DNA of 63,742 nucleotides, the filler included, from Cercozoa sp. M6MM (Eukaryota > Protista > Endomyxa: Ascetosporea), in NCBI GenBank assembly GCA_040357565.1. It is 9 parts of 9 records of this genome, joined end to end, with 100 filler letters (N's around TTAATTAATTAA, not from the genome) between each part and the next. Parts side by side here need not be neighbours in the genome. Positions count along the whole stretch, not along the records: positions 14,213 to 33,549 come from JBDODJ010000210.1; 8 more parts are not named here. The stretch is one strand, 5' to 3'. The notes under the pieces were generated by a model. It made no database searches, was not told the DNA's origin, and saw nothing but the letters and a program-made list of their open reading frames with translations. This document shows, in pieces, positions 1,600-62,543 of this stretch. The position numbers and the translations under genes are program-made. Every line of letters begins with the position of its first letter. Position 1 is the first letter of the stretch.

Positions 1600-2866
1600 T
1601 GCTGCTTCTGGCAGTGGTCTGCAAGAACGTCGTCGCTGCAAAAGTCGAGACCTTGGTATAAATTTAATGCTATAGCAGAACATCCACTCGGCTCCAGGTT
1701 TACTCGGGTTTCTGCTGTCGACAGGAAACACATGAAAGAGTCGTGCCGAGTCCTTCCGAAATCCATAAAGTCGACAGAGAGAATCGAAATGTGCACCCTG
1801 AAGTGGCGCATCCGTACGAAACGCCTCTTAGTGGTACCAACCCGGGCTCTTTCTTTCTTCTCCAGAAGAGAAGCAACAAAGTTAAACTTCGGTATATCTA
1901 GGAACGGCTGCACGCTATGCGACACGTACGGAGCACCGTGCTGATGGAACAGGTGTCGAGATGGAGCACCAAGCCGAGCACCAGACGTACCCGGGCGAAG
2001 AAATCGTGGTTCTTACACACTCGGCTCCCACCGCCGTACCCTCCCCCGCTCATCTGCAACAGCAGAGTTGTTTTATCTACTTATGTGCGCGGACAACAGG
2101 ACCAACTAATGTTCATGAAGTCTGGGTGGTACGTCTACTGCTTACACCTTCTGCATGCACCTGAGTCGGTGGGTGACATGAGCAAGCTTGCGGTATCTTG
2201 GAATCGTTTCTTAATTTCCCCGGAGGCTGTGGGGGATACTTTGTTTATAGGAGGTGAAATCCGAGTTCTACCGCAAAGTCGAGGAAGTCTCGCGACCAAA
2301 ATTGCCGTCCTTTATCGAACCAAACGGCCTGGACAAGGAACTCTTGGCATCGACTACCACCGCGGTTTCGCATCGTGCCTTTGGTATGTTGGAGGGACTA
2401 AGTTTCTTTGCAAAACATGCAAGGAAACCGTCTTAGTATTACAACTTTAATTCCAGACAACTTGGCCTGCGGCTTCACGGTGTCTTCGCACCTCTGGTGG
2501 ACAGCCGCCTATCAAAAGTTCCTCCACCAAGGAGCCGTGCACGCGATCGACTTCCATAACCTCATGAGTCACACCGTCATCGTGATTGTGGAACCCACTA
2601 TCTCCGAAGAGGTATATTCCTCGTGTGCCTTGCTTTCACCATGTGTCTCTTGCTGCACCCTTTCGTGTTGCTTGTACCCTAGCTGTTGGGCCATTTCCTC
2701 ACAAACCGAGGGCCAAACCAAGCGCATCAAGTCGAGCCGTCGGCGATGGACTCCGAAAGGGAGTCGGAACTTGTGCGACGCGCCGTCGCAGTGATGCGCG
2801 ATGTCAACATGTGTGACGTAACACCATCTTTCCACTATACACTGTTCCACTTACATTGCTGAGACT

Positions 2867-2924
<58 letters not shown>

Positions 2925-3929
2925 CAGGTGTTTGTGCGTTCCAACGATGACGAAGCACTCGTGTACGACGTCGATGTAAATCCGGACGTCCAATACGCCG
3001 CAAGTGCAACTGCGGAAGACCGTGAGCATGGAGCAGGCAAGATCAAAAAGATGACGCTTCCGCTTGGCGTGATCGGATGCGTCTCACTCGACGCCATCTT
3101 CGACACACTCGTCAGCTCAGGTGCTGCCTTACTTTCGAAATCTGCTTCATTAAAACGTGTACACTCTTGATTAAGCAGTAAAGAAGAACGCCGTGAAGGG
3201 CCTGCAAGTCATGAGTGTCGCCTACCGTCCTACCGCTGTCATGCTACGTCTCATTGACGTCGTGGGTTTTTCCTTTTGCATTCGCAATCTTTTACTCTTG
3301 CCACATCTTTCTATCCCGAGAGACTGCGCAGTACAACGCAGAGTTCCTCTACAATGCGATCGGGCAGGAAGGAAGCGAGAACGCCTACCGTTCCAAGAAG
3401 GGCCTTCAGGTGCCGCTACCAGACGACTTGCGCGATGCAGTGAAAGAACACAGTGCAGAGATGCAGGTGCACATGCTTCTGTTTCTTTTGGAATTCAGTT
3501 CCTTCGTTTTACGAAGGATTTTGCTGACTTGTTGCAGGGCCTGCTCGCCGATAGTCTGCGTGCACGCATTCGACACGTGTTTTGGCCGGGCGGTGAGAAA
3601 ATCCGCACGCTCGATGACCTGAAACACTTTTCGGCCTTTGGTGCGTCGGAAGCCTCTGGAGAAGCACTGGTACTGAAGTGCCTTCACCTTCAGTTGGTGT
3701 TGTGTTTCAATTTAGTGGTGTTTCAATCTGCGTGCAGGCCGATGAGTTGGCCCTGCTGCAGTTGTACACGAACGCTGGTCGTCCCACCAAACTGGTCGAA
3801 GAAGTCAGCACATCCGAGGTTCCAATGACGCCGCCAGCAGAAGCTAAAGAGACTGCTGCAGCGCTAGAAACTGAAGAGGCAGCTGGAAAGGCAGAGCCAG
3901 AAACTACAGAGGAAGAGGCCGAAGAGTAA
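1600..3929 (+). CDS. Multi-exon hypothetical protein with acidic C-terminal tail (5' end uncertain)
   Basis: Series of GT-AG-bounded protein-like exons (e.g. KSEFYRKVEEVSRPKLPSFIEPNG, VFVRSNDDEALVYDVDVNPD) ending ...ETTEEEAEE-stop at 3929. Confidence 0.55.
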
Positions 3930-4134
3930 CGTGACGCACGTTTACTTGAACTAAGGTTACGTTATATCAAGCGGTCTCGTCTCCTGATCGCCGATCTCCC
4001 GACTGACCAGAGACTCTTTACTGATAGCGAAAACTGATCCGCGCGGATTCTGACAAAAGCTAAAGAAAAAAAAACGAGACAGGAGGGGACAGCCAACACT
4101 GTATGCCCAAACATGGGTTGGTTCTGCACGAGAG

Positions 4135-5505
4135 ATGTCGCAGACAACGAATGAGCAGCTTTCACTTTTCAGTGAGAACGATTCGGGTTCGCAAAGGTTC
4201 GATTTTGTGAAGGACTGTTCGTCAATTTCAAGCACCTCGAGCACGGAAACCTTCAAGTTTACCAATGTCGAAAATGCGCTCAAGCTACTGACGTCTGAGA
4301 ACGCTGTACTTAGAACCGAACTGTCAAAAACCCTGTCCTCTTTGGATGATGTGTAAGTCAGTTGCAGAAGCCTGTTTTAATTGTATTTTTAGTTACATGC
4401 TCGGATATGCAGGTTACAGGAAAGCGACGACGAGACGAGATTCCTCAGAAGCAAACTTCGCAGCTTGGCTCTGAACAACGACGCACTCGTTCGAGAGAGC
4501 AGAAGAGCCACGGACTTAAGTCGACAAGTGTATTTATTCATACATCCGTCCTTTCAGTTTATCAAACTGTCCCTGTCCATGTCCAGTTCGTGAGCATTCT
4601 CATCTCACTGTCTCGCAGGCTCTCTGAATTGGACCAACACCAACGACGAGAAAAGTTGCTAGAACGAAAGATTCAGCGGTTGGAGCGAGAGTTTACAGCG
4701 CTGAAGCGTGAGACAGAGAGCCAACGGAACAACTCAACACCTGAATCAGTCAACATGTCTTCACAAACTGATGCCGTCCCCGTCCACGCGAATACGATGA
4801 CTTCGTGCATCGGCAGAGCGAGCGCTAGCGAGGCGTACGCTATTCAAGTGCTCAAAGACCGCAACGTCAATATGACTTCTGCTGGAAACGTGGACTCAAT
4901 TATAGCAGAGCGGGATTCTGCTTTGCAAGTAGCAGAGCAGATGCAGCAGCTTGTACAGCGCACGAGAAGGAAATACCTCAAGCTTAAACAACGATACCGC
5001 AGCCTGCGAACTACGTCGGCGCCTTCTCGGGTTCACGAAAATTGCACAGCGCCAGCGCTCTTCAAAAAAACTGAGCGATGTGCGGTGTGGAGTTCAGAGT
5101 CCCGGAAAACCAACAAAGAAGTCTTCAGATTGTACTCACTCTTCAGCGGTTTCTTCCTTGAGATCTGTATAGTGTATTCGTCACAGATGTTGCAAGCAAA
5201 TGCTGTTTCTTCTCCAAAACTGCTCATCATCGCTGTTCCGTGACGAAAACGACCCTGCCAGTGACTCGGAGAGCGACCAAGGCAGGTGGAACAAACGCGG
5301 CAGTTTCGTGCAGTCACACAATCCAAATCAACTGCGACGACAATGGCATTCCCGCGACAGCAGCGACGACAGCGCATCACTTGCCTCTGATGTCACCGAG
5401 AAACTTCGCCAGACGCTCGAAACTGTCACTTTTCTGACCGATCCGGAGTCATTTCGATCCGCCGGTGTGCAGTTGAAGCCCGACATTTTGCACGTCGCTG
5501 CTTGA
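4135..5505 (+). CDS. Hypothetical coiled-coil protein, spliced
   Basis: ORF segments with heptad-like stretches (REKLLERKIQRLEREFTALKRE; ALQVAEQMQQLVQR) separated by short GT-AG introns. Confidence 0.5.
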
Positions 5506-5834
5506 CGTGAACAAACAGTTCGACCAGCGCGGTTGCTACGCTAGCTATTTTCGTAATCGAGTGAAGCAGCTACAGTAAAAAAGTCACCGCACGGCCGCAC
5601 CTTCCCTCTCGTCATTCGATTGTGCGGCACGTAAACTAGCATATTGATCACCGTCTGGCCGTCCACGGTCTTTTTTGGATGAGGGCATCTTCTTTTTCGC
5701 TCAGCGCCTGGATCAAACGCTGGCCCGCATCGATGACCGACTGAGCGCCGTCGATCGAGCCGGCCCGCTCGACAACGCAGGTCACTGACTAATCAAGTAC
5801 TGCTACGTTTAAAATAGCAGTTTCAATCGCGTCG

Positions 5835-22937: not shown

Positions 22938-23025
22938 ACTAACTTCGCTTATCCTCATAATGGTCGGCTACTTCAGTTGCGTTGGGTTGATGGTAGTGCG
23001 ACTACGCTACCATTTTGGTATACGC

Positions 23026-23933
23026 CCCCGAGAACCAAGGGTAGCCGTAATTACGCCGTAATTACGCAGTATTTAGCTACACTTGGCAATCTTTGCTCTT
23101 CGTCGCCGACCGGACTTGCGTTCGAACGTTTGGATTTCGACCCGGCCGAGCGACGTTCTGACGCAAGCCCCCCCCCCCCCCCCGCGAAACGCGCTCGCTC
23201 TTTGCACAAGAAGCGACGTTAATGTACAAGGCACATCTGTCCTTAACTCCTTTTGTGTCCACTATACCCGAGTCTTGCAACAAGTGGCGCCGGCTGCTGT
23301 AGATAGCGTAACCGGTGCGTAATTTTGATACTGTCGACATTAAGCAACTAAACTTAAGTTTACTTGCTCCGCGTGGAAGCAACTCCCAGTCATGCCAAAT
23401 AAGAATTGGAGTGTTTTGCTAAGGCTGAGAGCTGGTAACCTAACAATTGATTGCTGCCTAGCTTGGCATACCCTGTGTTTGGTGGAGTGGCGAGCAGCTC
23501 GAAACTGCAGCAAGAATTGAAAAAATACTCTTTCCAATACCAGGTACCTCAAAGGATACCGTGCTTGTTGACACCAAAGCAACTGACTTGCTCTATCTTG
23601 AGCAGGCAAGAGGGCTTTCTTTTTGTTTATCAACAACAAACCTCTCAACTACCACCACTGTAACAATGCCCTACTGGGGTAACCTCTCTCGCCTGATATC
23701 TTTCGGTTTATTACGTCGAACGAACACTAAATTAAACGACCTTACATTCTTACTTTTCTTTAGTCGTCGTCTTCACTGAAGGTGACAATCTCACAATCAA
23801 CAATTTAGGCAGAATTTTGATGTAACTTAATTTGTGCATAATCTTACGTAATGTAATTCGTGCGTATTCTTACGTAATTCATGCGTAATTGCAGTCATAC
23901 TATTGCGTAATTACGTTAACCTGGTTCTCGGGG
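23026..23933. mobile_element. 908-bp non-autonomous TIR element carrying a decayed P-loop NTPase
   Basis: Perfect 12-bp TIR CCCCGAGAACCA (23026-23037 / 23922-23933) extending imperfectly into CGTAATTACG; subterminal AATTACG repeats; flanks GTATACGC / ACATACGC (6/8 match). Confidence 0.75.
23244..23674 (-). pseudogene. Frameshifted Crinkler(CR)-type NTPase relic
   Basis: Ordered motifs across frames: VGHCY (23674-23660), PGIGKSIF (Walker A, 23544-23521), ILIWHD (about 23406-23389), WTQKEL (23261-23244). Confidence 0.55.
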
Positions 23934-24013
23934 ACATACGCTAACTGGTACCACCAAACTGAACGGAATACCCCGACGTGACGGCCATCCGGATTGGCTA
24001 AACCGCACAGACA

Positions 24014-24906
24014 TTAGTTTCTGTTGCCAGCACGTTGCTCCTCGGCGAGTCGGCGCTGCTCCTCCTGCAGGTTCTGCAAGCACGCACACAGGCGAACAGA
24101 CATCGGTTGTTGCACACAGGCAGGAGACACAAACAGTCGGGTGTATGGGCAGTACCTTCATCATGCGCGGCATGAAGAAGGAAGCGCCGACGCCGACGAG
24201 AGCGATGATCATCATTTTGTTGCCCAGCAGAGCTGTAACACACACACACACACACACACACAAAGGTCAGGTGACTCTCGACTTGGAGACAGGGATAAAA
24301 GACTGAGGGTACACATGATGGAGAAGGGCGTCTTGGGAGGCTCGTAAACTTGCTGGCCGAGCGGCTTCACCTTGAACTGCACGTGTGCACAGTTAGGACA
24401 AGGCTCAAAACAGGCGCCCATTGCTGCTGTACCGGTCGTGTGGAGAGTCGCGACTGCGTGTTGTAGCCAAAGGCACGCACCTGGCCGTCCTGCACCTGCA
24501 GTCGCACCGGGTCGAAGCGGAAGCTTGGGTGTGCCACACTCAGCACGTGGACACCCTCCGTCAGATCGCTTTGCACACACACATATCAAGCACAGACACA
24601 CACCGGTCACATGGCGCCTGAGACAGTGTGTACGTGTAGAACGATCCATCGGCTAGAGGCACGATTTCGTGAACACCATTCAAGTACAGACTGCAGCAGA
24701 TGACACGTTTACTGTTCCACCACAGATAGATAGCACATGAAATCTACCGAAGTGGCCTGTAATCTGCGTCGGCAGGGAGCTGCACCTGGCCCTACGAACA
24801 GAACGTGTATCTGCTGTCAGTCGGGATGCTTTGTTTGTATTTGCATTACAGGCAGACGCAAGGCTGAGATGCCCACGATGAGACCCAGCAGTAGCACTAG
24901 CAACAT
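24014..24906 (-). CDS. EMC7: ER membrane protein complex subunit 7
   Basis: Signal peptide MLLVLLLGLIVGISAL; ADGSF, EGVHVLSVAHPSFRFDPVRLQV, then ALLGNKMMIIALVGVGASFFMPRMMK TM segment typical of DUF2012/EMC7. Confidence 0.85.
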
Positions 24907-34566: not shown

Positions 34567-34602
34567 CCCCGAGAACAAAGGGTTCGTAACGACGCCGTAA
34601 TC
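34567..34602 (+). mobile_element. Solo end of the CCCCGAGAAC TIR family
   Basis: CCCCGAGAACAAAGGGTTCGTAACGACGCCGTAA closely matches the left end at 23026. Confidence 0.65.
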
Positions 34603-35306
34603 CCTTAGAATTTTTTTGAGCCAAACATGCTTCGCTTATTCGTGGATTTCAGTCACGCCACAGCACTACCGATACACAAAATGTGTGTGCTTGATTGGCC
34701 CGAACAGGTACCATGGACCAAGATGGCAAGGTTTATGTGGTTCGTGCGCCGTCCCGTCTCTGATTCGCTAGGCTGATGAGCACCGATTGCAAAGTGTTGT
34801 TCAAAACTGGCGCGCAAGTGATGAGCCTGCTCATTGCGCTAGCGCGGTATTGCATGACCCGAACTGAAGTGTTGAGCGTGAGGGCGATAACCAGCAAGTG
34901 TTCTCCGGTGGCCTTCCGTTCCCCTCGGTCTTGCTTTCTGTCCTGCCTGTGTCTACTTATTCCTTACTTGTGCATATCCGTAGTGTCCTTGAGTGTTCTT
35001 GGCAGCGAAGCGCCTGCCTGCGCCGCATTGTGTTGGTGTCGACGTTGCAATGAACAATGAAGTACTGGCTCAGTCCTACCTATCTCTCCTACCCCACCCC
35101 TATCCTTAGTGTCCTAGCTTTGTCCAGATAGAAGTCTAGACTTAAGGGGACTGTCGAAACGTTCTAGCCTGTCTAGGGAATGTCTACGACCTGCCCTCAG
35201 GGAGAAGCATTGGCTGCTGTCGAGAAGGGGGGTTTCAGTCTAGGACTCGGGTTACTGTCACCCAGAAGCGTGATACTTGGGTTCAACATTCACGGGTGGC
35301 TGCCTT

Positions 35307-35480
35307 TCGATAGAGATAGAGGACGTTGGGCGGCTCGATCGGACAGATAGAGGACCTTGGGCGGCTCGAAGAGATAAAACATCATTGGGCGGCTCAAAGA
35401 CATAAGCATCGTTGGGACGGCTCGAAGATATCAGACAAACATCACATCGTTGGGCGGCTCGATAGAGATAGAGATCGTGG
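35307..35480. repeat. Degenerate tandem array, core TTGGGCGGCTCGA, 5 copies, 28-37 bp period
   Basis: Core recurs at about 35326, 35357, 35385, 35412, 35450 with GA-rich variable linkers, just 3' of the Rpt1 stop. Confidence 0.8.
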
Positions 35481-35506
35481 GGGTGACCCGGCCGTCGAAG
35501 CCGAAG

Positions 35507-37895
<2,389 letters not shown>

Positions 37896-38352
37896 CGTGC
37901 GGCGTGAGAACGTGCTTGTTACAGCTGTAGTCAGCTCAACGACACGAGACACAGTGGCAATGCCAGAAACGGCCTTCAAAATTTGCAAACCTAGCCAGTC
38001 CAAATCGACAGTACGGATCGGCGTCTTTATTATTAGGAAAATCTAGGGAATCATGTGCTATTAATGAGACAACAGGCTGTGTCTAGTGTGGCTTACTACT
38101 GTTTCAAGGTTAACTGTGCATCTACAATGCGAATTCACGCGCTTGGCCTTCCGCACGAAGTTGCCGAGGACGAGATTTCAGTCACCTCGTAAATTGCATT
38201 TTGGCTGTTTTACCGTATTTCTACGCCTGTGTTAAAGTGACATTGCAGCCATAATCATTGACAGTGCATTGTTTATTGGAGGTAAGGCACTCTAAGCCAG
38301 TTTTTCGGTGTTGCCAGTCCGTTTCTCTGGCACAGAACCGCTTCTTTCGGAT

Positions 38353-39725
38353 GAGATGTTGGAGGGTGACCGAGTCAGCTTTGCTTTCAAGCACGTTCCT
38401 TTGCTTCTTCGAGCAAGCGAAAACGACAAAACTGAATCCGAAAGCACCAGAGTCAGCGGTGGTGCTCGATTGTGTCACGCATGCCTGCACACGGTTGCGG
38501 TCGTGCTCGAAGGCAAAAATCGCACGGTCGCTCTCGTGTCGCGTTCCAGTGACGCTGACGGGCAGTTCGACGTGCAGTTCCGACAGATCGAGATTGACGA
38601 GGACCGTGGCGAGATTGTTGAAATCACAGGCGGCCTCGATTTCTGTACTTTCCACTTTGTCGTCATTCCATTTGTTTTGTGCGCATCGAGCGTTTTTGAA
38701 GTGCTGCTGCTGCTGGAGGACGGTTCAGTGGCACGAATTTCGCTCTCTGCGACGGGTTCGTACGGTGCTGGTGATTTTAACTCAAGCAGTCCCACTTCGT
38801 TCGCTCAAGGTAGTTTGTCAACTCTTTCCACTCCTGGTTCAAACTGACATCATCGAGTGTCGGTGGTGGCACAGAAGACATGCCGCTGCAGGCCGAAGTA
38901 CCGATTGAATTTGACGCGCAAGTGACGGGACAGCGTGCTTCTCAAGTCTGTGCTGGTATTGATCGATACACTTCGGTATGTGCTTAAGGTTGTTCCAACT
39001 GTTCTCTTCCTGGTGTAGGCCATGCGCACGGTGCAGTGCGCGTTGAGGATGCCGTGTACGTCTTTGGACTCAACGCACCTTCAGTCGATTCTGACTCGGT
39101 TGTAACAACCGACGCCAAGCAAGCCAAGAAGTACACCAGCGATCCTCTGTGCGTGCCACGCGAGCAAATGTATGCTGCACTGCGACCTGTTCTGCTTGAC
39201 GATGTTGAAGGTACTGCACTTTGTGTTTCTTTTTCGTGTACTCTTTCGGTGCGTTTGAGATGCACGCTGTGTTTGTGGTAGCTACCAGTGTGTCTTGTGG
39301 ACCGTACTCGACCCACATCCAGTTTTCACCGATGAGCTACACCTGACGCTTCACTCGAAAAGCTTAGCATGCAAATGCTGGTTGACTCCTTTGACACCTT
39401 TGCTCGTTGATGCTGTCTCTCTTCGTGCAGTCGCTTTGCAGCCTTTTGGTAGGCCTTCCAACTGTCACTGCAAACAAGTTAAACGTATATTACAGGTACA
39501 ATACTAAAAACAACAACAACTATCAATGAACAACAGAATCTATGTACGTGTGCAACGACAGCTTCGAAAAGTCAATGTCAATATTCAGTCGCATCAGCTT
39601 CAAGATCGTGTCAGCTGCGCGGTCTGGTACTGGGCGCCAACGCACCTCCAACACCCGACGTGTTTCTTTCTTCTGCAGAAACGGAGTGTTGTCGGTTTAG
39701 TGCACTTTTTATTTTAAAGAAGTAA
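38353..39725 (+). CDS. Hypothetical multi-exon protein ending just before the Merlin insertion
   Basis: ORF MLEGDRVSFAFKHVPLLLR... plus further GT-AG exons; stops at 39717 or 39725 depending on frame. Confidence 0.45.
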
Positions 39726-39734
39726 AAGGAACCT

Positions 39735-42311
39735 GGGAATCCTACCGTATCGTCGGGTAAAAATAGTGAGCCGATAAAACTGAGCCAACAAGTAGTTTTC
39801 ATGTTGATCAGTTTACAATGATAGCACGTTTAACTGACCCCCAGTGTGTGCTCTATAAATACACTAGCAGTGTGCAGAGCATCATTAGCGATCGGGCGCG
39901 TCGATAGAAAATCAAAAATTTGTTGGGCGAGAAAAAACATGAGTGCCGACAAGAAGAAGAAAACGCCTGCTGAATCGCTCCAAATATTGCATTTTGCACA
40001 AGCAACAGACGAACTTGCGGAGCTTAAAGAGGAAGCCCTGCTTGAGGCACTACGGGTACATAAACACGATAGAAAAAACAACAAGTAGCGAAAATATTGG
40101 TACTGTGTTGCAGGAGCACTTGCACAAAAGCGTTAGCGGAGAAGACGTTCCGAGCTGCAAGCACTGCGAGCGGAAGCTTGTGCTCAAGGTGCGCAGCTAC
40201 CGAGGCGAGCACAAACTGGCCTGGTGCTGTACAGCAACGAAGCGTGACGACAACACAGCACGCAACAGCAAGTGCTGCGGGGTCTGCATCTTCCTGTCGA
40301 CAAGCCAAGCCGACGGCTTTCACACAGTCTTGTCGCACGGCAGCGGCTCTCTAAGTCAGAACCTGAGAGCTCTGCACGTGATGTTGTGGGACAAAGGCAC
40401 TATCTCAAGCATGGCTCGTACCGCCCGAAAAAAGCCCCGGTGGGCGCGGTCACTTCGTCGCCGCAGCGTCGGCATCCTCGGCCGCAGTGAACGCTTGCGT
40501 CAGGAGCAGTACCGACTCGGCGAACGTCTGTGCGCCAGCGACCAAGACGCGGACATCAGGCACGAGTGGGAGCAGAAGGCTCATGAACTCGGCTACAAGC
40601 ACTTCCTCGGATTCGTCACAGAGATTGACGAGGTACACATCATTTATAATGCAGATGTAGTACCAAGTTTTTGTAGTTCTGTCTCGGCAAGAACAAGCCA
40701 ACAAAGAACCAACACAGTCGTCCACAGCGCTCACATAAAGTGTGGGTGTTCTCGATGACTCTGTGCGCGCGTTTCAGGGACAAGGTACAAGCACACTTTG
40801 TACACTTCGCACACGCAACACACAGTTAGAACATATCGTCTCGCGCATGTATCCCGCAGGAAAACAAGCGCGAGACTCGGCGCGTGCTCGAGTACCGGTA
40901 CCAGGTGACCATGAAGCGAGACAACGAGAGTTTCTACCCCGTTCTCATGGAGAACGTGCTCATCAAGCCAGGCTCCACGCTGTTCCAGACTCAAACGTAC
41001 ATGCACTTTGTCAGAACACAAACACATAAATCAGTGCGGAGTTATGACTTGGTACACAGGGACTCGTGGAAGGCGTACCCTGTGGCCATGAGGAGAGCAA
41101 TCGCACATATCAAAGGCATCGACTATTCTGACGTGACGCACGAAGACCTCACCTGTTGTCTGGAGTCCGTCAACCACAGGCACGAGTGGGTCAAGCGGTC
41201 GACGCAGGACGCCAGCAAGACCGTCAACACCAACAGCACCGAAGGCGGCCGCAGTCACGTGCGTCAGCTGCTGAGCAGGTTCGTGCTGCTCAAAGGCGTC
41301 ACCGACCCTACAAGCATCGCCATGACTATGGCGTTCGTGCAGTGGTACCGCAACGCTACCCTCGGTTTTCGCATCGGAGAGCACGATGACGAGACCGTCA
41401 CCATGCTCACGCGCTTCCGTGACACGCGCCAGCTGAAAAAGTACGATGACGATATTGAGCGAAAGCTGTTCTTGTGGAAGCACGCGCTGCACTGTCTCTT
41501 CTCCCAGGTACTCTGATACACCAACCCTTATGGTGTCACAGCACATATACATATATATATATATATATATTCACCCATATCCAATGGATATAATGATTAA
41601 ATTTAGGGCATACAAATGGAGAAGAACACACGAACTCAGGAGGGACTTCTCGTGACGGTGCTCGCCACTCACGATCAGCGCTTTGTTGACCAACTCATTG
41701 CGCTGCTCGACGAAAACGACAGCGAGTCAAACGAGTGTCAAGACGAGGTATCTTCGCTTTACATTTAACATGAATTCGTACTTTACATGCTTGGGGCAGC
41801 GTGGTACTGTTGTCGAATATTCTACCTTTTGGCACAGAATCCGCGGCCGACAAAAAGAAGACGCGTGCGAGGCGAACCGTACTTGGTCGAAATTCTCGTC
41901 CCACAGGTCCAAGCCATGTACTTGGACGATGACGGCGATGCAGGAGACCAGGTGCAACGACCGCAGCGTGTTGCCAAGAACGCAGCTGCCTTGCGTCTCG
42001 CTCAGCAGCAATACGACGTCCTAGAGGAAGAGCATCAACTTAGCCAATGATGTGTCAATTAAAAGTTCGAAAAGCCTGCTACAAATGTCGAAAAACATCA
42101 ACCAATAAAGAAAAACAGATTGCACGTGCCTGCCTCGGGTGACCAAAAAACCCGAGCAACAATAACTCGACAAATAAGCATCTAGTACAATTCAAAAACG
42201 CCTAAACAATCACTACACACGCCCAGGCTTCATTAAAGGTAAAAACTAGCTTGTTTCGCGACAGTTTTTTTATGGGCTCACTATTTTACCCGACGATAGG
42301 GGAGGATGCCC
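39735..42311 (+). mobile_element. Merlin (IS1016/ISXO2-like) DNA transposon, complete, 2,577 bp
   Basis: Imperfect ~38-bp TIRs: GGGAATCCTACCGTATCGTCGGGTAAAAATAGTGAGCC vs reverse complement of right end GGGCATCCTCCCCTATCGTCGGGTAAAATAGTGAGCC; perfect 9-bp TSD AAGGAACCT at 39726-39734 and 42312-42320. Confidence 0.95.
39939..42050 (+). CDS. Merlin DDE transposase, 7 exons, no visible disabling mutation
   Basis: N-terminal CKHC...WCC zinc-ribbon-like region; VTEIDE|FCLGK..VWVFSM; IKPGSTL..TDSWKAY; VNHRHEWV..VNTNSTEG; six GT-AG introns keep frame; TGA at 42050. Confidence 0.9.
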
Positions 42312-42385
42312 AAGGAACCTATACGATACCGTTTTTTTGTTCCAAAATCGAGAGCATGCGGTCATAGTCAATGCCCACCAAGGAC

Positions 42386-43837
42386 TAGTCTGACGCTGCG
42401 GAGAAGAATGTTGTGCTTTTGAGCCGAACTTGACTTTCCCCGTTGCTGTCTACATCCACGAAAACAGTCAACTACAACATGCCAGTGAAATTAAACGTAC
42501 TTCGTCCAATTCCACGACAAATCCGATGAAGTCAAAGCCGTCGGGCGCCGTCTTCTGCCGGTCCTCGGGATCACCTGCGCGTTCGAGGAGCTGAAAGTCG
42601 GCTTCTCGGTTTCGTTCCACCTCCGCTAGAGTCGCGATAATGCCGACGCAAGTTCCTGACGTACTCTTCGCCGCGATTGAGACAGCGTGACAGCGCGCGC
42701 TGTCAGCGTGGTGTTTTCAACAACGACCTCGTAAATGTCAACAAGTGTCTTCCGCAGATCGCTTCGGCTCGCACTGAAGACAGTCGGCAAGGTGCGCAGC
42801 GACTTCTTCACTATAATGCTTGGTCAATCTAATAACAATCAGTATTTACGGCGTAATTACAAACCCTTTGTTCTCGGGGATTAAGATGGATGGTCGGGGG
42901 TGCCACTACCAACCCCAGGACATGCAGGGAGCTACATAGTTGGCTTTTAGTTAATTTTTTCAGTCAACCAACTTTTAAGCTTTCCAGTACCAGTCCTGGG
43001 GTGGGTCCGTAACAAGCGCATGGGTTTCTTAGTTAGTAGACTGAGCTAGTAACAACTACGGTGTGCCGCACGACGCTAATTTATTCTCGTCACAGTGGTA
43101 GACGATAGACAAGTACTGAGGTATAACCGCGACGCTTTCATGTCGCTCAGAATTCATTCGCTGATTGATAGCGATCATGAAAGACGAAATCGAACGTGAG
43201 GACACACTTGCGATCGCAAGTGGACGAGGGATGACGTGACAGGCAGACTCAGTCAATTCACGACTCCAGAGAAATCGCCGGCACCTTCGACAGCACTGGC
43301 TTGCACATTTACTGCAACGCAAACACACGCGTCCTGATACGCCAAACAACGAAGAAAACGAGAGAGGGTACATTCCACATCGGCTAGGGTCGCATTTGCT
43401 TCCAACAACCGCACTGACACACTCTCCTGGTGCTCCCGCAGATCTACACAACCAGACACATTAATGCCAACTGCGCACTCCTCCAAGAACACCTTATTAG
43501 ACCCCGTCAAAAATGATTACGCTGCTCGAGTCGCGCGAAACGCGCGCCGTTGCAGCGCACGAGTTCGTGTCGCCAGAAGCGCAGCAAGCCCAGGCGGCAC
43601 GGCGCGCCAGTCGACTTCATACCCTGCCACACACCATCAGAACCAAACTGAGTGTGTGTGAGTGTGAGAGAACACAAGTCAGACTACATTGCAGGACGCC
43701 GTCTTGCTGTCGCACTGCGTTCGTTGGACTTCCCGCGCGCTGCACACGTCGCCCGAGCAGTGTCGCTGTTGCACAAGGGTGTGGTGTGTGCATATGTGCA
43801 TACGTACACGTGTATGTGTGTGCAGACAGAGACGTAT

Positions 43838-44250: not shown

Positions 44251-47200
44251 GTGAACGCGTTGATGCTGGCGCTGCGATCGACGCGTCCGCAGTTCGTGCG
44301 CTGTGTGAAGCCGAACGAGAACAAGTCGTCGAGCGAGTACGACCGCAAGCTGGTGCACCATCAGCTCAAGTGCGGTGGTATCTTCGAGGCGCTGCGCGTC
44401 ATGAAGCACGGCTACCCGACGCGCATTCCGTACAAGGACATCTACGCGCAGTTCTCGCCGACGATGGGCGGCCACGAGCTGACGCACGACCTGTCGGAGA
44501 AGGACTTCTGCGAGGCCATTGTGATTGCCTTTGGTGCCGTGCGCAAGGACTACCAGATGGGCCGCACCAAGATCTTTTTCCGTCCCGGCAAGGGCCAGGT
44601 GATCCAGGAGATGAAGCTCTGGGGCAAGCAGCCGCTCTCGAGCGAGCACCTCGAGCGCATCCGCATGTGGCTCATCATGCGTCGCATCTCGCGTCTGCGC
44701 GGCCGCGTCAACGCCTTCATTCGCTTCGACAACGTGCTGCGCGAGGTGCGCTGGCGTGAGCACCAGAAGAAGCTCGCCAAGAACCAGAAGGAGCGCGAGC
44801 GCCTCGAGGCACTGGAGCGCGAGCGACTCGAGCGTCAGCGCCTCGAGAAGCTCCGTCTTGAGCAGGAGCGCAAGAACCGCGAGCAGATCCAGCAGCTCAC
44901 GCGCGAAAACGAGGATGCGCGCGCCGAGCTTGACAAGATGCGCCAGCAGTTCGACGAGGACCGACAGGCCCTCGAGGCCGCGCTGGCCGAGAACGAGTCC
45001 GAGAAGGCGCAGCGACGCGTCGAGCTTGAGCGCAAGCAGCAGGAACTCGTCGAACTCGAGAACAAGATCGCGCAGCTCGAGGCCGCCATCGAGCGCGAGC
45101 GCGAGTTCGCGCAGCAGGAGCTCAACCGCTCGCTCGCGCGCGCCGCCGACGACAAGAACCGCGCGGTACTCGCTGCTTTTCGTGCTTTATTTATTTCGAG
45201 TGAAAGCTTACAAAGCTTTGCGTATTTTGAACGAAAGCTTTGTTTGATTTGAGTGAAAGCTTTGGCAGCTTTGTCACATGTGTATGTGATATACAGGAGC
45301 GCCAGCTGCAGTCGCAGATCGACGAGCTGAACAAGAAGATTGAGCGCGTGTCGGGCGAGTTGCAGTCATCGCGCAGCGAGACGGACCAGGTGCAGGGCCT
45401 GCTGAACGAGCAGGAGCGTCAGGCGGCGAACCTGAAGATGCAGCTCAACAATCTCGAGCAGGAGAACAAGGGCAACCTCGAGGACGCCGACCGACGCCTG
45501 GAGCGCATGCAGAAGGAGAAGGCCGACCTGGAGGAGCGCATGGAGGCACTCAAGCAGCAGCACCAGGAGCACGTCAAGTCGCTGCAGGACGAGTTCGGCA
45601 ACGCGTCGGCACAGTCGCACGACGAGCGCGTCCGCGCGGAGCAGGCGCTCAACAAGAAGATGGACAAGCTGCGCGCGCAGATCGCCGAGCTCGAGGGTCT
45701 GCTGGCCGATGCCAACGAGGACCACGAGAAGACGCGCCGCTCGCTCGATGAGCAGAAGCGCGAGGCGCAGCGACTGCTGTCCAAGATGGACACGGTGCGC
45801 CAGGCTCACCAGGTAGCCCCTGCCCCCTTAACCCTACCCCTTTAACCCACCCCACCCCCCCCCTTTAACCCCCCCCCCCCGCAGGCGGAGCTGGGCGAGG
45901 CCGAGCGCGACCTGCAGCGCGTCGAGAAGGAGAAGAAGGCGCTCGAAAACAAGATGAAGGAGATGCGCAAGAAGAACAACGAGGAGCTCATGGTACATAC
46001 TGTCACTACACACTGTCGCTACCCCTTACCNNNNNNNNNNNNNNNNNNNNNNNNNNNNNNNNNNNNNNNNNNNNNNNNNNNNNNNNNNNNNNNNNNNNNN
46101 NNNNNNNNNNNNNNNNNNNNNNNNNNNNNNCCCCCCGTTTCCCCACAGGAGGCGCAGTCGGCGGCGGAGCGCATGGCGCAGGAGCTGCGCAAGAATGCGT
46201 CGGACGACACGCTGGCGCTGTCGAAGCAGATCGAGGCGCTCAAGACGCGGATCTCGGAGCTCGAGAGCGAGCTGTCAGACAAGTCGGAGGAACTGGAAGG
46301 CGCGTCCAACGAGCTCGCCAACGCGAAGCGCGAGCAGAACTCGCTGAACCTCAAGCTGCAGTCGGCCGAGGCCGAGGCGCAGGCGCAGATGCTGCAGCTC
46401 AAGGCCGACGCCGAGCGACTTGAGGCCGAGAAGGCCTCGCTCGCCAAGCGCATCGCCGAGATCAAGGCCGGCTACAACGAGTCGCTCAAGAAGGCGCAGC
46501 AGGAGTACGAGGACAACTTCCGCATCTTCTCCGAGGACAAGAAGGCTGCCGACGCCGCCTTCACGCAGCGCATCGAGGAGCTGTCCAAGCGACTCGCCGG
46601 CTCCGAGCAGTAGCTTTGTCCCCAACTCCCTATCCCCAGCCCCTTTACCCCCCCCCCCGCAGAGCGGCCGCCGAGGCACGTGCTGAGACGGAGGACAACC
46701 GTCGCGAACTGGCCGAGGCGCGTCGCGTCACGGAGAGCAAGGAGCGACAGCTCGAGAAGGCCGCCGCTGAGAAGAAGGCCATGGAGGAGGTACCACATGA
46801 GCTTTTTTCGACGAGAGTTTTTGAAAAGCTTCGCTTCAAATAGCTTTGCTTTGAGTTGAGTTGAGTTGAGTTTTGCTTTGTGAGTAGCGACTCGCCGGTG
46901 CTCGCGAGCGTCTGGAGCAGGAGCTCGAGCAGCAGCAGGAACAGTACGAGGCCAACCTGGCCACGATCAGCGACGAGAAGAAGCGTGCGGTACCAAAGCT
47001 TTCCGAGTTGAGTTGAAAAGCTTTGAACGCTTTGGTTTGAGTTGCGATGAGTTGAGTTATGCGATTTTCCTCAGGGCGAGCTGCAGGAGAAGCGCATCTC
47101 CGACCTGATGGAGGAGTTGTCGGGCGAGCAGCGCAAGAACGCGACCTACAAGATTAAGGTGGACAACATGGTGGCCAAGTTCAACCAGATGCTCAAGGAG

Positions 47201-62400: not shown

Positions 62401-62543
62401 AACTCAACCCAAAGCAACTCAACTCAACTCAAAGCAAAGCAACTCAACTCAACTCAAAGCAAAGCAAAGCAGCTCAACTCAACTCAACTCAACTCAACTC
62501 AACTCAACTCAACTCAACTCAACTCAACTCAACTCAACTCAAC
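62395..62543. repeat. (AACTC)n pentanucleotide repeat
   Basis: Near-perfect tandem to contig end; same (GAGTT)n motif in myosin introns at 46852-46872. Confidence 0.95.

What the first reader, a model, noticed from the sequence alone, without database searches (positions are those of the whole stretch)
23018..23941. TIR-bounded element carrying a decayed Crinkler-type NTPase: candidate new DNA-transposon family
Seen: a 908-bp insert between convergent DPH7 and EMC7, with a perfect 12-bp TIR (CCCCGAGAACCA), subterminal AATTACG repeats and a 6/8-matching flanking duplication (GTATACGC/ACATACGC). On the minus strand, broken by stops and frameshifts, are VGHCY, (G)xPGIGKSIF(F)QFLL, ILIWHD and WTQKEL in that order. 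Known: CR/Crinkler NTPase+REase proteins typically show VRxCY, GTPGIGKS, a hydrophobic Walker B and PxWxxxEL in this order, and have been proposed to derive from transposons. Inference: this may be a deletion derivative of an element whose mobility protein or cargo is a CR-NTPase, giving physical TIR/TSD boundaries to such a unit. No DDE transposase is visible inside it.
Basis: partly seen in the sequence, partly recalled or inferred. Interest (0 to 1): 0.8.

Follow-up and report, generated by a model that had tools for sequence, protein, structure and literature searches.

The report
Patchwork non-autonomous transposon with P-loop remnant
A 908-base insert between two housekeeping genes has matching inverted ends that recur elsewhere in this genome around unrelated DNA, so it is likely an ordinary non-coding jumping element filled with pieces of other repeats, one of which may be a decayed remnant of a Crinkler-type enzyme gene, and probably not a new kind of transposon.

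Summary
The element is real: 908 bp (23026-23933), perfect 12-bp TIR, subterminal repeats, flanks matching 6 of 8. Its ~35-bp end recurs at 34567 and 42879 and on other contigs of the same run, around unrelated interiors, one a broken Merlin-like DDE transposase. The interior is patchy. 23361-23802 belongs to a repeat with about 170-290 times the summed depth of unique flanks and its own end at 23802, while the TIR ends reach only 2-7 times. Against a profile of 70 Crinkler-type NTPase cores only the Walker A 10-mer scores above chance (0 of 300 shuffles), and the profile was selected on that motif. With it masked the match is weak (7-215 of 300 shuffles). Two of three motif spacings fall outside the reference range, other copies mostly lack the Walker A serine, and variation among copies looks neutral (4 synonymous, 12 not). 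Best reading: a Pack-type or Ds-like non-autonomous cut-and-paste element carrying captured pieces. A Crinkler-type ancestry of the cargo is plausible (about 60%) but unproven. Nothing shows that an NTPase moves it. No genome was available to pair ends or tabulate TSDs.

The parts
23018..23025 (.). left flank of the putative 8-bp target duplication
   Evidence: 6 of 8 match to 23934-23941; chance 0.4-3%
23026..23060 (+). left end of element A: 12-bp TIR plus ~35-bp family end
23044..23075 (+). left subterminal 11-bp tandem unit (2.9 copies) holding the palindrome CGTAATTACG
23112..23183 (.). 18-bp inverted repeat (83%) followed by a 16-C run; on the minus strand the run reads as glycines of an RF..GG-like motif
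23116..23271 (.). low-copy repeat piece (summed depth 4-12x flank) holding WTQKEL
23343..23368 (.). 26-bp palindrome (24/26) at the left edge of the high-copy piece; likely a fold-back junction scar
   Evidence: 10 contigs leave the sequence at 23361
23361..23802 (-). piece of a high-copy repeat ('H') with many internal deletions among copies and its own end at 23802 (TGTTGA... on the minus strand); 23636-23687 inside it is low-copy
   Evidence: summed depth 78,000-140,000 against 489; 5 + 4 contigs with long, mixed loose ends at 23802 and 23795; deletion joints
23515..23548 (-). Crinkler-type Walker A-like stretch, broken by a frameshift on each side
   Evidence: 21.8 bits, 0 of 300 shuffles; HMMER iE 0.12 over the window; Ser codon reads Arg in 68% of the depth laid at 23527
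23822..23915 (.). right subterminal repeats
23922..23933 (-). right 12-bp TIR
23934..23941 (.). right flank of the putative target duplication
34567..34610 (+). unpaired family end B, with an interior unrelated to A
42838..42879 (-). unpaired family end C, abutting a 5'-truncated transposase fragment; other contigs leave at 42879 (other flanks) and at 42846 (other interiors)
42315..42815 (-). fragment F of a broken Merlin-like DDE transposase directly inside end C (continues at 39684-39431 beyond the nested element M)
   Evidence: tblastn to spliced M, E 2.8e-7; one contig joins a C-type end to this piece at 42578

Best explanation
Element A is likely a non-autonomous cut-and-paste DNA transposon of the Pack/Ds kind: its two short ends with subterminal repeats would be bound by a transposase made elsewhere in the genome, and its non-coding interior is likely a patchwork of DNA picked up from other repeats. 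Shown: the TIRs, the recurrence of the same end at other sites with other flanks and other interiors, the lack of a transposase inside, and the uneven abundance of the interior pieces. Inferred: insertion by a DDE transposase (an 8-bp duplication would fit hAT, Merlin or Mutator, by recall and PMC8101967), capture by break repair or aberrant excision (the palindrome at 23343-23368 as a scar), and unpaired ends B and C as leftovers of incomplete excisions. The largest piece comes from a separate high-copy repeat. It carries a Walker A-like stretch that more likely than not (about 60%) descends from a long-dead Crinkler-type NTPase gene; either way it would be a passenger.
For: Four ends share ~35 bp and then diverge. 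At end C, 2 contigs leave exactly at the terminus and 2 leave 34 bp inside. The interior of C is a transposase fragment homologous to M, B's interior matches nothing in A, and A's interior is P-loop-like. Summed depth: H piece 170-290x flank, A ends 2.3-2.7x, C end 6.9x, while M's equally short TIR shows 113x by the same method, so most H copies are not bounded by these ends. H has its own terminus at 23802. Variants among copies: 4 synonymous and 12 non-synonymous of the 16 classified in the proposed frames. Shared TIRs with interiors of different origin, solo ends and inward-facing ends with different TSDs are described for Pack-CACTA and Pack-MULE (PMC6379663, passages).
Against: No autonomous partner was identified and no second complete TSD-flanked copy was seen, because no genome is held. 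The duplication is imperfect (6/8). No empty site among the 15 of 16 joints shown, but the holder may be the window's own sample. Summed contig depth is not a copy number, and a filter left holes at 23844-23895 and 23948-24230, so H's link to the right end is not fully visible. A keeps VGHCY, the Walker A Ser, a Leu of FQFLL and WTQKEL that most laid H copies lack or alter. This also fits A being a less-deleted relic of one ancestral gene rather than a mosaic. The motifs downstream of Walker A are collinear with z 1.65-2.3 (10-20 of 400 shuffles).
Confidence: 0.62

Rival explanations
1. The ends are those of a Merlin-like family: F is a deleted autonomous member whose 5' end is C, and A is a derivative that swapped its interior. 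This names the transposase left open in the best explanation.
For: End C abuts the 5' part of F in the expected orientation. A second contig joins a C-type end to the F piece, whose summed depth is 3-6x. Merlin makes 8-9-bp TSDs (PMC8101967, passages).
Against: Merlin TIRs begin 5'-GG and these begin CCCC. There is no similarity to the TIR of the neighbouring Merlin-like element M (scores 15-29, under shuffle maxima). No partner end lies downstream of F. F lacks the zinc-ribbon part that M has. The Merlin label of M and F is itself not backed by a profile: 0 Pfam or NCBIfam hits and -1.5 bits on a bacterial IS1595 model.
Confidence: 0.2
2. One reading: A is a deletion derivative of an element whose native gene was a CR NTPase (+REase), with H a further-deleted, amplified offshoot.
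For: Walker A match beyond all 300 shuffles and best of 210 window tiles. An extra collinear RF..GG motif lies 26 codons after W, inside the reference range 23-42. A holds more CR-like residues than most H copies. CR NTPase+REase modules are linked to transposons in a review (PMC5289972 section 11).
Against: The same ends flank non-CR interiors. H has its own end and vastly outnumbers the TIRs. CY-to-Walker A is 39 codons (references 16-35, n=57) and the near-invariant Arg is missing; Walker A-to-W is 94 (references 99-146, n=40). Real CR cores decayed by 10% substitutions plus 5 indels still beat A's masked score in 48 of 48 held-out and 20 of 20 leave-one-out trials; only at 20-25% decay do 20 of 48 and 4 of 20 fall to A's level. 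No protein relative found.
Confidence: 0.12
3. On the interior only (compatible with the best explanation): H is a non-coding repeat such as an LTR or tandem unit, and the P-loop-like motifs are chance readings across frameshifts.
For: H's end reads TG...CA like an LTR (recall). The Walker A-masked score is at chance under two of three penalty sets (215 and 32 of 300). Other copies read Lys-Arg at the Walker A, matching an inverted twin at 23604-23626. Variation is neutral. The profile was selected on the Walker A.
Against: P-G-I-G-K-x-x-F shows no listed common variant at those residues in other copies apart from indels and is unlikely by chance in 908 bp. The anchored downstream test is mildly positive at all six settings. 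Only about 7-10% of the local depth is laid at the Walker A, so the Arg reading may not be the family majority.
Confidence: 0.35

Closest known systems
Pack-TYPE elements (Pack-CACTA, Pack-MULE; PMC6379663, passages read)
   Same: Shared short TIR ends, interiors of different chromosomal origin, no transposase, solo ends and inward-facing ends with unlike flanks close together.
   Different: The captured pieces here are other repeats and a transposase fragment, not shown host exons; termini are CCCC, not CACTA; the host is a protist; the autonomous partner is unknown.
Maize Ds-type non-autonomous hAT elements (abstract start seen for TIR and subterminal repeats; 8-bp TSD recalled)
   Same: 11-12-bp TIR, subterminal repeats, heterogeneous interiors, possible 8-bp duplication.
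   Different: The terminal letters differ from the recalled hAT consensus; no hAT transposase is linked.
Merlin / IS1016-IS1595 transposons (PMC8101967, passages read)
   Same: 8-9-bp TSD; a Merlin-like transposase fragment lies inside family end C.
   Different: Merlin TIRs start GG; these start CCCC and do not resemble the TIR of the Merlin-like element M next door.
CR (Crinkler/RHS-type) NTPase+HTH+REase proteins (Zhang et al. 2016, not held; known from PMC5289972 section 11 and recall)
   Same: Walker A-like PGIGKS.F, then hydrophobic-D, W..EL and RF..GG-like motifs in that order.
   Different: Broken by stops and frameshifts; whole-domain similarity not significant; two spacings out of range; no header or REase seen; spread over repeats of different abundance.

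Membership tests
Non-autonomous TIR DNA transposon | terminal inverted repeats | tested here: met
   perfect 12 bp, imperfect to ~30 bp
Non-autonomous TIR DNA transposon | target-site duplication | tested here: inconclusive
   6 of 8; chance 0.4-3%; B and C flanks do not pair
Non-autonomous TIR DNA transposon | same end at dispersed sites with different flanks | tested here: met
   4 ends in the window; 2 further contigs leave at the terminus
Non-autonomous TIR DNA transposon | no transposase inside | tested here: met
   0 Pfam hits in six frames (three minus frames of 23200-23783, three plus frames of the whole element); 0 NCBIfam hits in the minus frames
Non-autonomous TIR DNA transposon | empty pre-insertion allele | tested here: inconclusive
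   none among 15 of 16 joints shown; only one holder run, possibly the source sample
Pack-TYPE element | shared ends with interiors of different genomic origin | tested here: met
   A, B and C interiors unrelated; contigs diverge 34 bp inside end C
Pack-TYPE element | related autonomous element supplying the transposase | not testable with these tools
   no genome held
Merlin | TIR starting 5'-GG | tested here: not met
   ends start CCCC; definition from PMC8101967
Merlin | 8-9-bp TSD | tested here: inconclusive
   6/8 at A
Merlin | DDE_Tnp_IS1595 transposase between the ends | tested here: inconclusive
   fragment F inside end C has the motifs by eye; profiles not significant
CR-NTPase | Walker A GTPGIGK[ST]xF | tested here: met
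   in A, across a frameshift; 0 of 300 shuffles; Ser is Arg in 68% of laid depth in other copies
CR-NTPase | R-x-C-Y 16-35 residues before Walker A | tested here: not met
   Gly for Arg, 39 codons away; segment missing from most H copies
CR-NTPase | Walker B hhhD and the S-P motif | tested here: inconclusive
   anchored z 1.8-2.0 to Walker B; no S-P seen
CR-NTPase | MPxWxxxEL 99-146 residues after Walker A | tested here: inconclusive
   WxxxEL present, no MP, 94 codons
CR-NTPase | whole-domain profile match | tested here: not met
   HMMER iE 0.12 on 10 residues; masked scores at or near chance; controls
CR-NTPase | downstream REase domain | not tested
   no CR-REase profile built; the element ends ~150 bp after the last motif

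The most novel reading that the evidence does not exclude
The high-copy repeat H, or the CCCC-ended family, is the non-autonomous offspring of a mobile element whose only enzyme is a Crinkler-type NTPase plus nuclease, the physical transposon behind CR proteins, still leaving hundreds of deleted copies in a protist genome.
Probability: 0.06. Interest if true: 0.85.

Novelty: new member of a known kind. Interest (0 to 1): 0.27.

Why it matters
As read, it adds an unclassified CCCC-ended TIR family that shuffles repeat and transposase fragments in a protist, with two ends facing inward across a proteasome ATPase gene, the stage at which Pack elements are proposed to capture genes. That is of modest interest. 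If the novel case held, it would give Crinkler/RHS NTPase-nuclease modules defined mobile boundaries and make their proposed transposon origin testable. I found no paper linking Crinkler genes to TIRs and TSDs in the held library (0 papers; searches gave nothing on it), but the key 2016 paper and its supplements were not available.

Tried and rejected
No genome held. No RNA holder listed. End patterns: 0 in metagenome contigs and 0 in viral contigs. Pfam on frames of A, B and F: nothing near a cut-off; NCBIfam 0 of 10 proteins. Word-index protein search: none at E <= 10 among 87 and 437 candidates for two minus frames, longer proteins only. phmmer on 1.84 billion representatives with one frame: 0 at E <= 0.001. 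The third minus frame and the plus strand were not searched against those collections. The 105-codon plus-strand ORF 23462-23776 was rejected: 99% of laid depth carries a variant at 23484 that makes a stop in that frame (read from sequence), and it scores 6.5 bits on the CR model. Rfam: 0. H does not fold better than shuffles (z -1.13). A first motif scan returned 13 loci, 12 clamp-loader-like and 1 other ATPase by eye, none used; a second gave 0 in viral contigs. B+C as one 8.3-kb element: flanks match 4 of 8 or 5 of 9 and essential-looking genes lie between, so not favoured, not excluded. The bacterial IS1595 model (45 of 120 loci) did not score M above shuffles. The fold of P0001 was unusable (pLDDT 39.6), so no fold search was run. 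Atlas on P0002: unnamed eukaryotic clusters only. Earlier findings: nothing for this genome or sequence, and unrelated notes.

Full report
Observation. A perfect 12-bp TIR bounds 908 bp (23026-23933), and the flanks match at 6 of 8. Subterminal arrays lie at both ends. The five peptide motifs lie in the stated order on the minus strand, with a frame change between each neighbouring pair and four stops in the first segment. The TIR alone is weak evidence (72 of 1000 shuffles give a 12-mer inverted pair), and the flank match has a 0.4-3% chance. EMC7 has a sub-threshold Pfam hit; DPH7 rests on recall. No genome was held, so family evidence comes from the window and from contigs of one run, X1, which may be the window's own sample.

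The ends form a family. The same ~35 bp occur at +34567 (B) and -42879 (C). Pair scores are 62-71 against shuffle maxima of 36-39 (200 shuffles each). A profile of the four ends finds no fifth end in the window. On C, 2 contigs leave exactly at the terminus with long other flanks, 2 leave 34 bp inside with other interiors, and 1 joins a C-type end, inverted, to 42578 (6 of 27 loose-end rows shown). B's interior matches nothing in A. C's interior is fragment F of a broken transposase homologous to the nested element M (E 2.8e-7). So one end type goes with at least three unrelated interiors.

A's interior is uneven. Against a unique-flank depth of 489, summed depth is 78,000-140,000 over 23376-23635 and 83,000-109,000 over 23688-23791. 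It is 1,224 at 23636-23687, 2,100-5,800 at 23116-23271, and 1,307 and 1,142 at the ends. Summed depth is not a copy number, and a filter left holes at 23844-23895 and beyond 23948. Even so, M's short TIR shows 113x by the same method and C's end 6.9x, so a several-hundred-copy TIR would likely have been seen. Ten contigs leave at 23361, beside a 26-bp palindrome. Nine leave at 23795-23802 with long mixed sequence, which marks a separate terminus reading TGTTGA (7 X1 rows among 13 of 109 loose-end rows shown). Many joints delete parts of this repeat, H.

The Crinkler question. I fetched 120 metagenome loci with a GTPGIGK[ST]xFxxY pattern. Of these, 94 were long enough and 70 remained after removing near-duplicates. 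Their label as CR-type rests on motif order (recall) and weak Pfam ties: RHSP in 3 and Crinkler in 1 of 25 scanned, all under cut-off. Plain HMMER finds 10 residues of A at iE 0.12. A frameshift-aware search with X at breaks gives 21.8 bits, above all 300 shuffles (maximum 16.2) and above the next window tile (16.6; 210 tile-strands). The set was chosen on that motif, so I masked it. Scores of 6.0, 9.8 and 30.6 were then reached by 215, 32 and 7 of 300 shuffles at three penalty settings. Anchored on Walker A, the downstream region gives z 1.65-2.31 (10-20 of 400, six settings). An extra RF..GG-like motif falls at a normal distance, but the CY and W spacings fall outside the reference ranges. 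Controls show the method keeps real cores after 10% substitutions and 5 indels (48 of 48; 20 of 20 leave-one-out) and loses 20-40% only at 20-25% decay. In other copies the Walker A Ser codon reads Arg in 68% of the 5,487 depth laid there, which is under a tenth of the neighbouring depth. The 16 variants classified, chosen as the commoner ones among 40 of 58 shown, are 4 synonymous and 12 not. No protein relative was found. Against my reading: A keeps CR-like residues and segments that most H copies lack, as a less-deleted relic would. I put CR ancestry near 60%: a very old or lineage-specific remnant, or chance.

Mechanism. Shown: ends, recurrence, mixed interiors, no enzyme. Inferred: a DDE transposase acting in trans binds the TIR and the CGTAATTACG-type repeats, excises and inserts the element with an ~8-bp duplication, and break repair or aberrant excision swaps interiors and leaves solo ends. 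This follows the Pack-CACTA model (PMC6379663, 12 of 24 passages read). The superfamily is open. A Merlin-like partner is possible through F, but the CCCC terminus fails Merlin's GG rule (PMC8101967, passages), and the ends do not resemble M's.

Literature seen. PMC5289972: passages and section 11; it links CR NTPase+REase to transposons and Phytophthora CRNs to helitrons, not to TIR/TSD units. Zhang et al. 2016: not held, recalled. Other papers: listings only. Searches for Crinkler with TIR and TSD, and for Crinkler with Cercozoa, gave 0 papers. The supplements of the 2016 paper could hold better CR profiles than mine.

Verdict. A real non-autonomous TIR element of an unclassified local family, likely carrying captured repeat DNA with a possible CR-type P-loop remnant. 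New member of a known kind; interest 0.27. The reading of a CR-driven transposon is not excluded (6%).

Noticed in passing
window 39735-42311 (+): Element M: ~65-70-bp imperfect TIRs starting GGG, perfect 9-bp TSD AAGGAACCT, and a three-intron (GT-AG) frame of 463 codons with Merlin-like motifs in order (VTEIDE, WVF, DSWKAY, VNH, NSTEG; family motifs recalled). TIR depth about 113x flank. Profiles do not confirm the family. Its closest proteins (62-78%) carry a cercozoan label, and PMC8101967 calls Merlin in Rhizaria unclear, so this may be a first clear case.
   Followed up: partly
window 42815-42315 and 39684-39080 (-): Older broken relative F of M's transposase; M sits in F's second intron.
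   Followed up: partly
window 34567-42879: Family ends B and C face inward across 8.3 kb holding a proteasome AAA-ATPase gene (AAA Pfam E 8e-18; PSMC2/RPT1 by recall), F and M: a possible pre-capture stage of a hybrid Pack element.
   Followed up: partly
window 23044-23075; runs X2 and X3: Two other organisms' runs hold tandem repeats one letter from A's 11-bp subterminal unit and containing CCCTAA, possibly an 11-bp telomere-like repeat or satellite.
   Followed up: no
window 23361 and 23802: The loose sequence left of 23361 resembles H's right end in direct orientation, and one contig goes back from 23802 to 23485: H may occur in tandem or with direct terminal repeats.
   Followed up: no
window 35307-35482: Five or six copies of a TTGGGCGGCTCGA-like motif at 28-31-bp spacing inside B's interior, unexplained.
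   Followed up: partly
window 46843-47062 and 62410-62495: A pentamer-type (CAACT) repeat shared by two distant sites.
   Followed up: no
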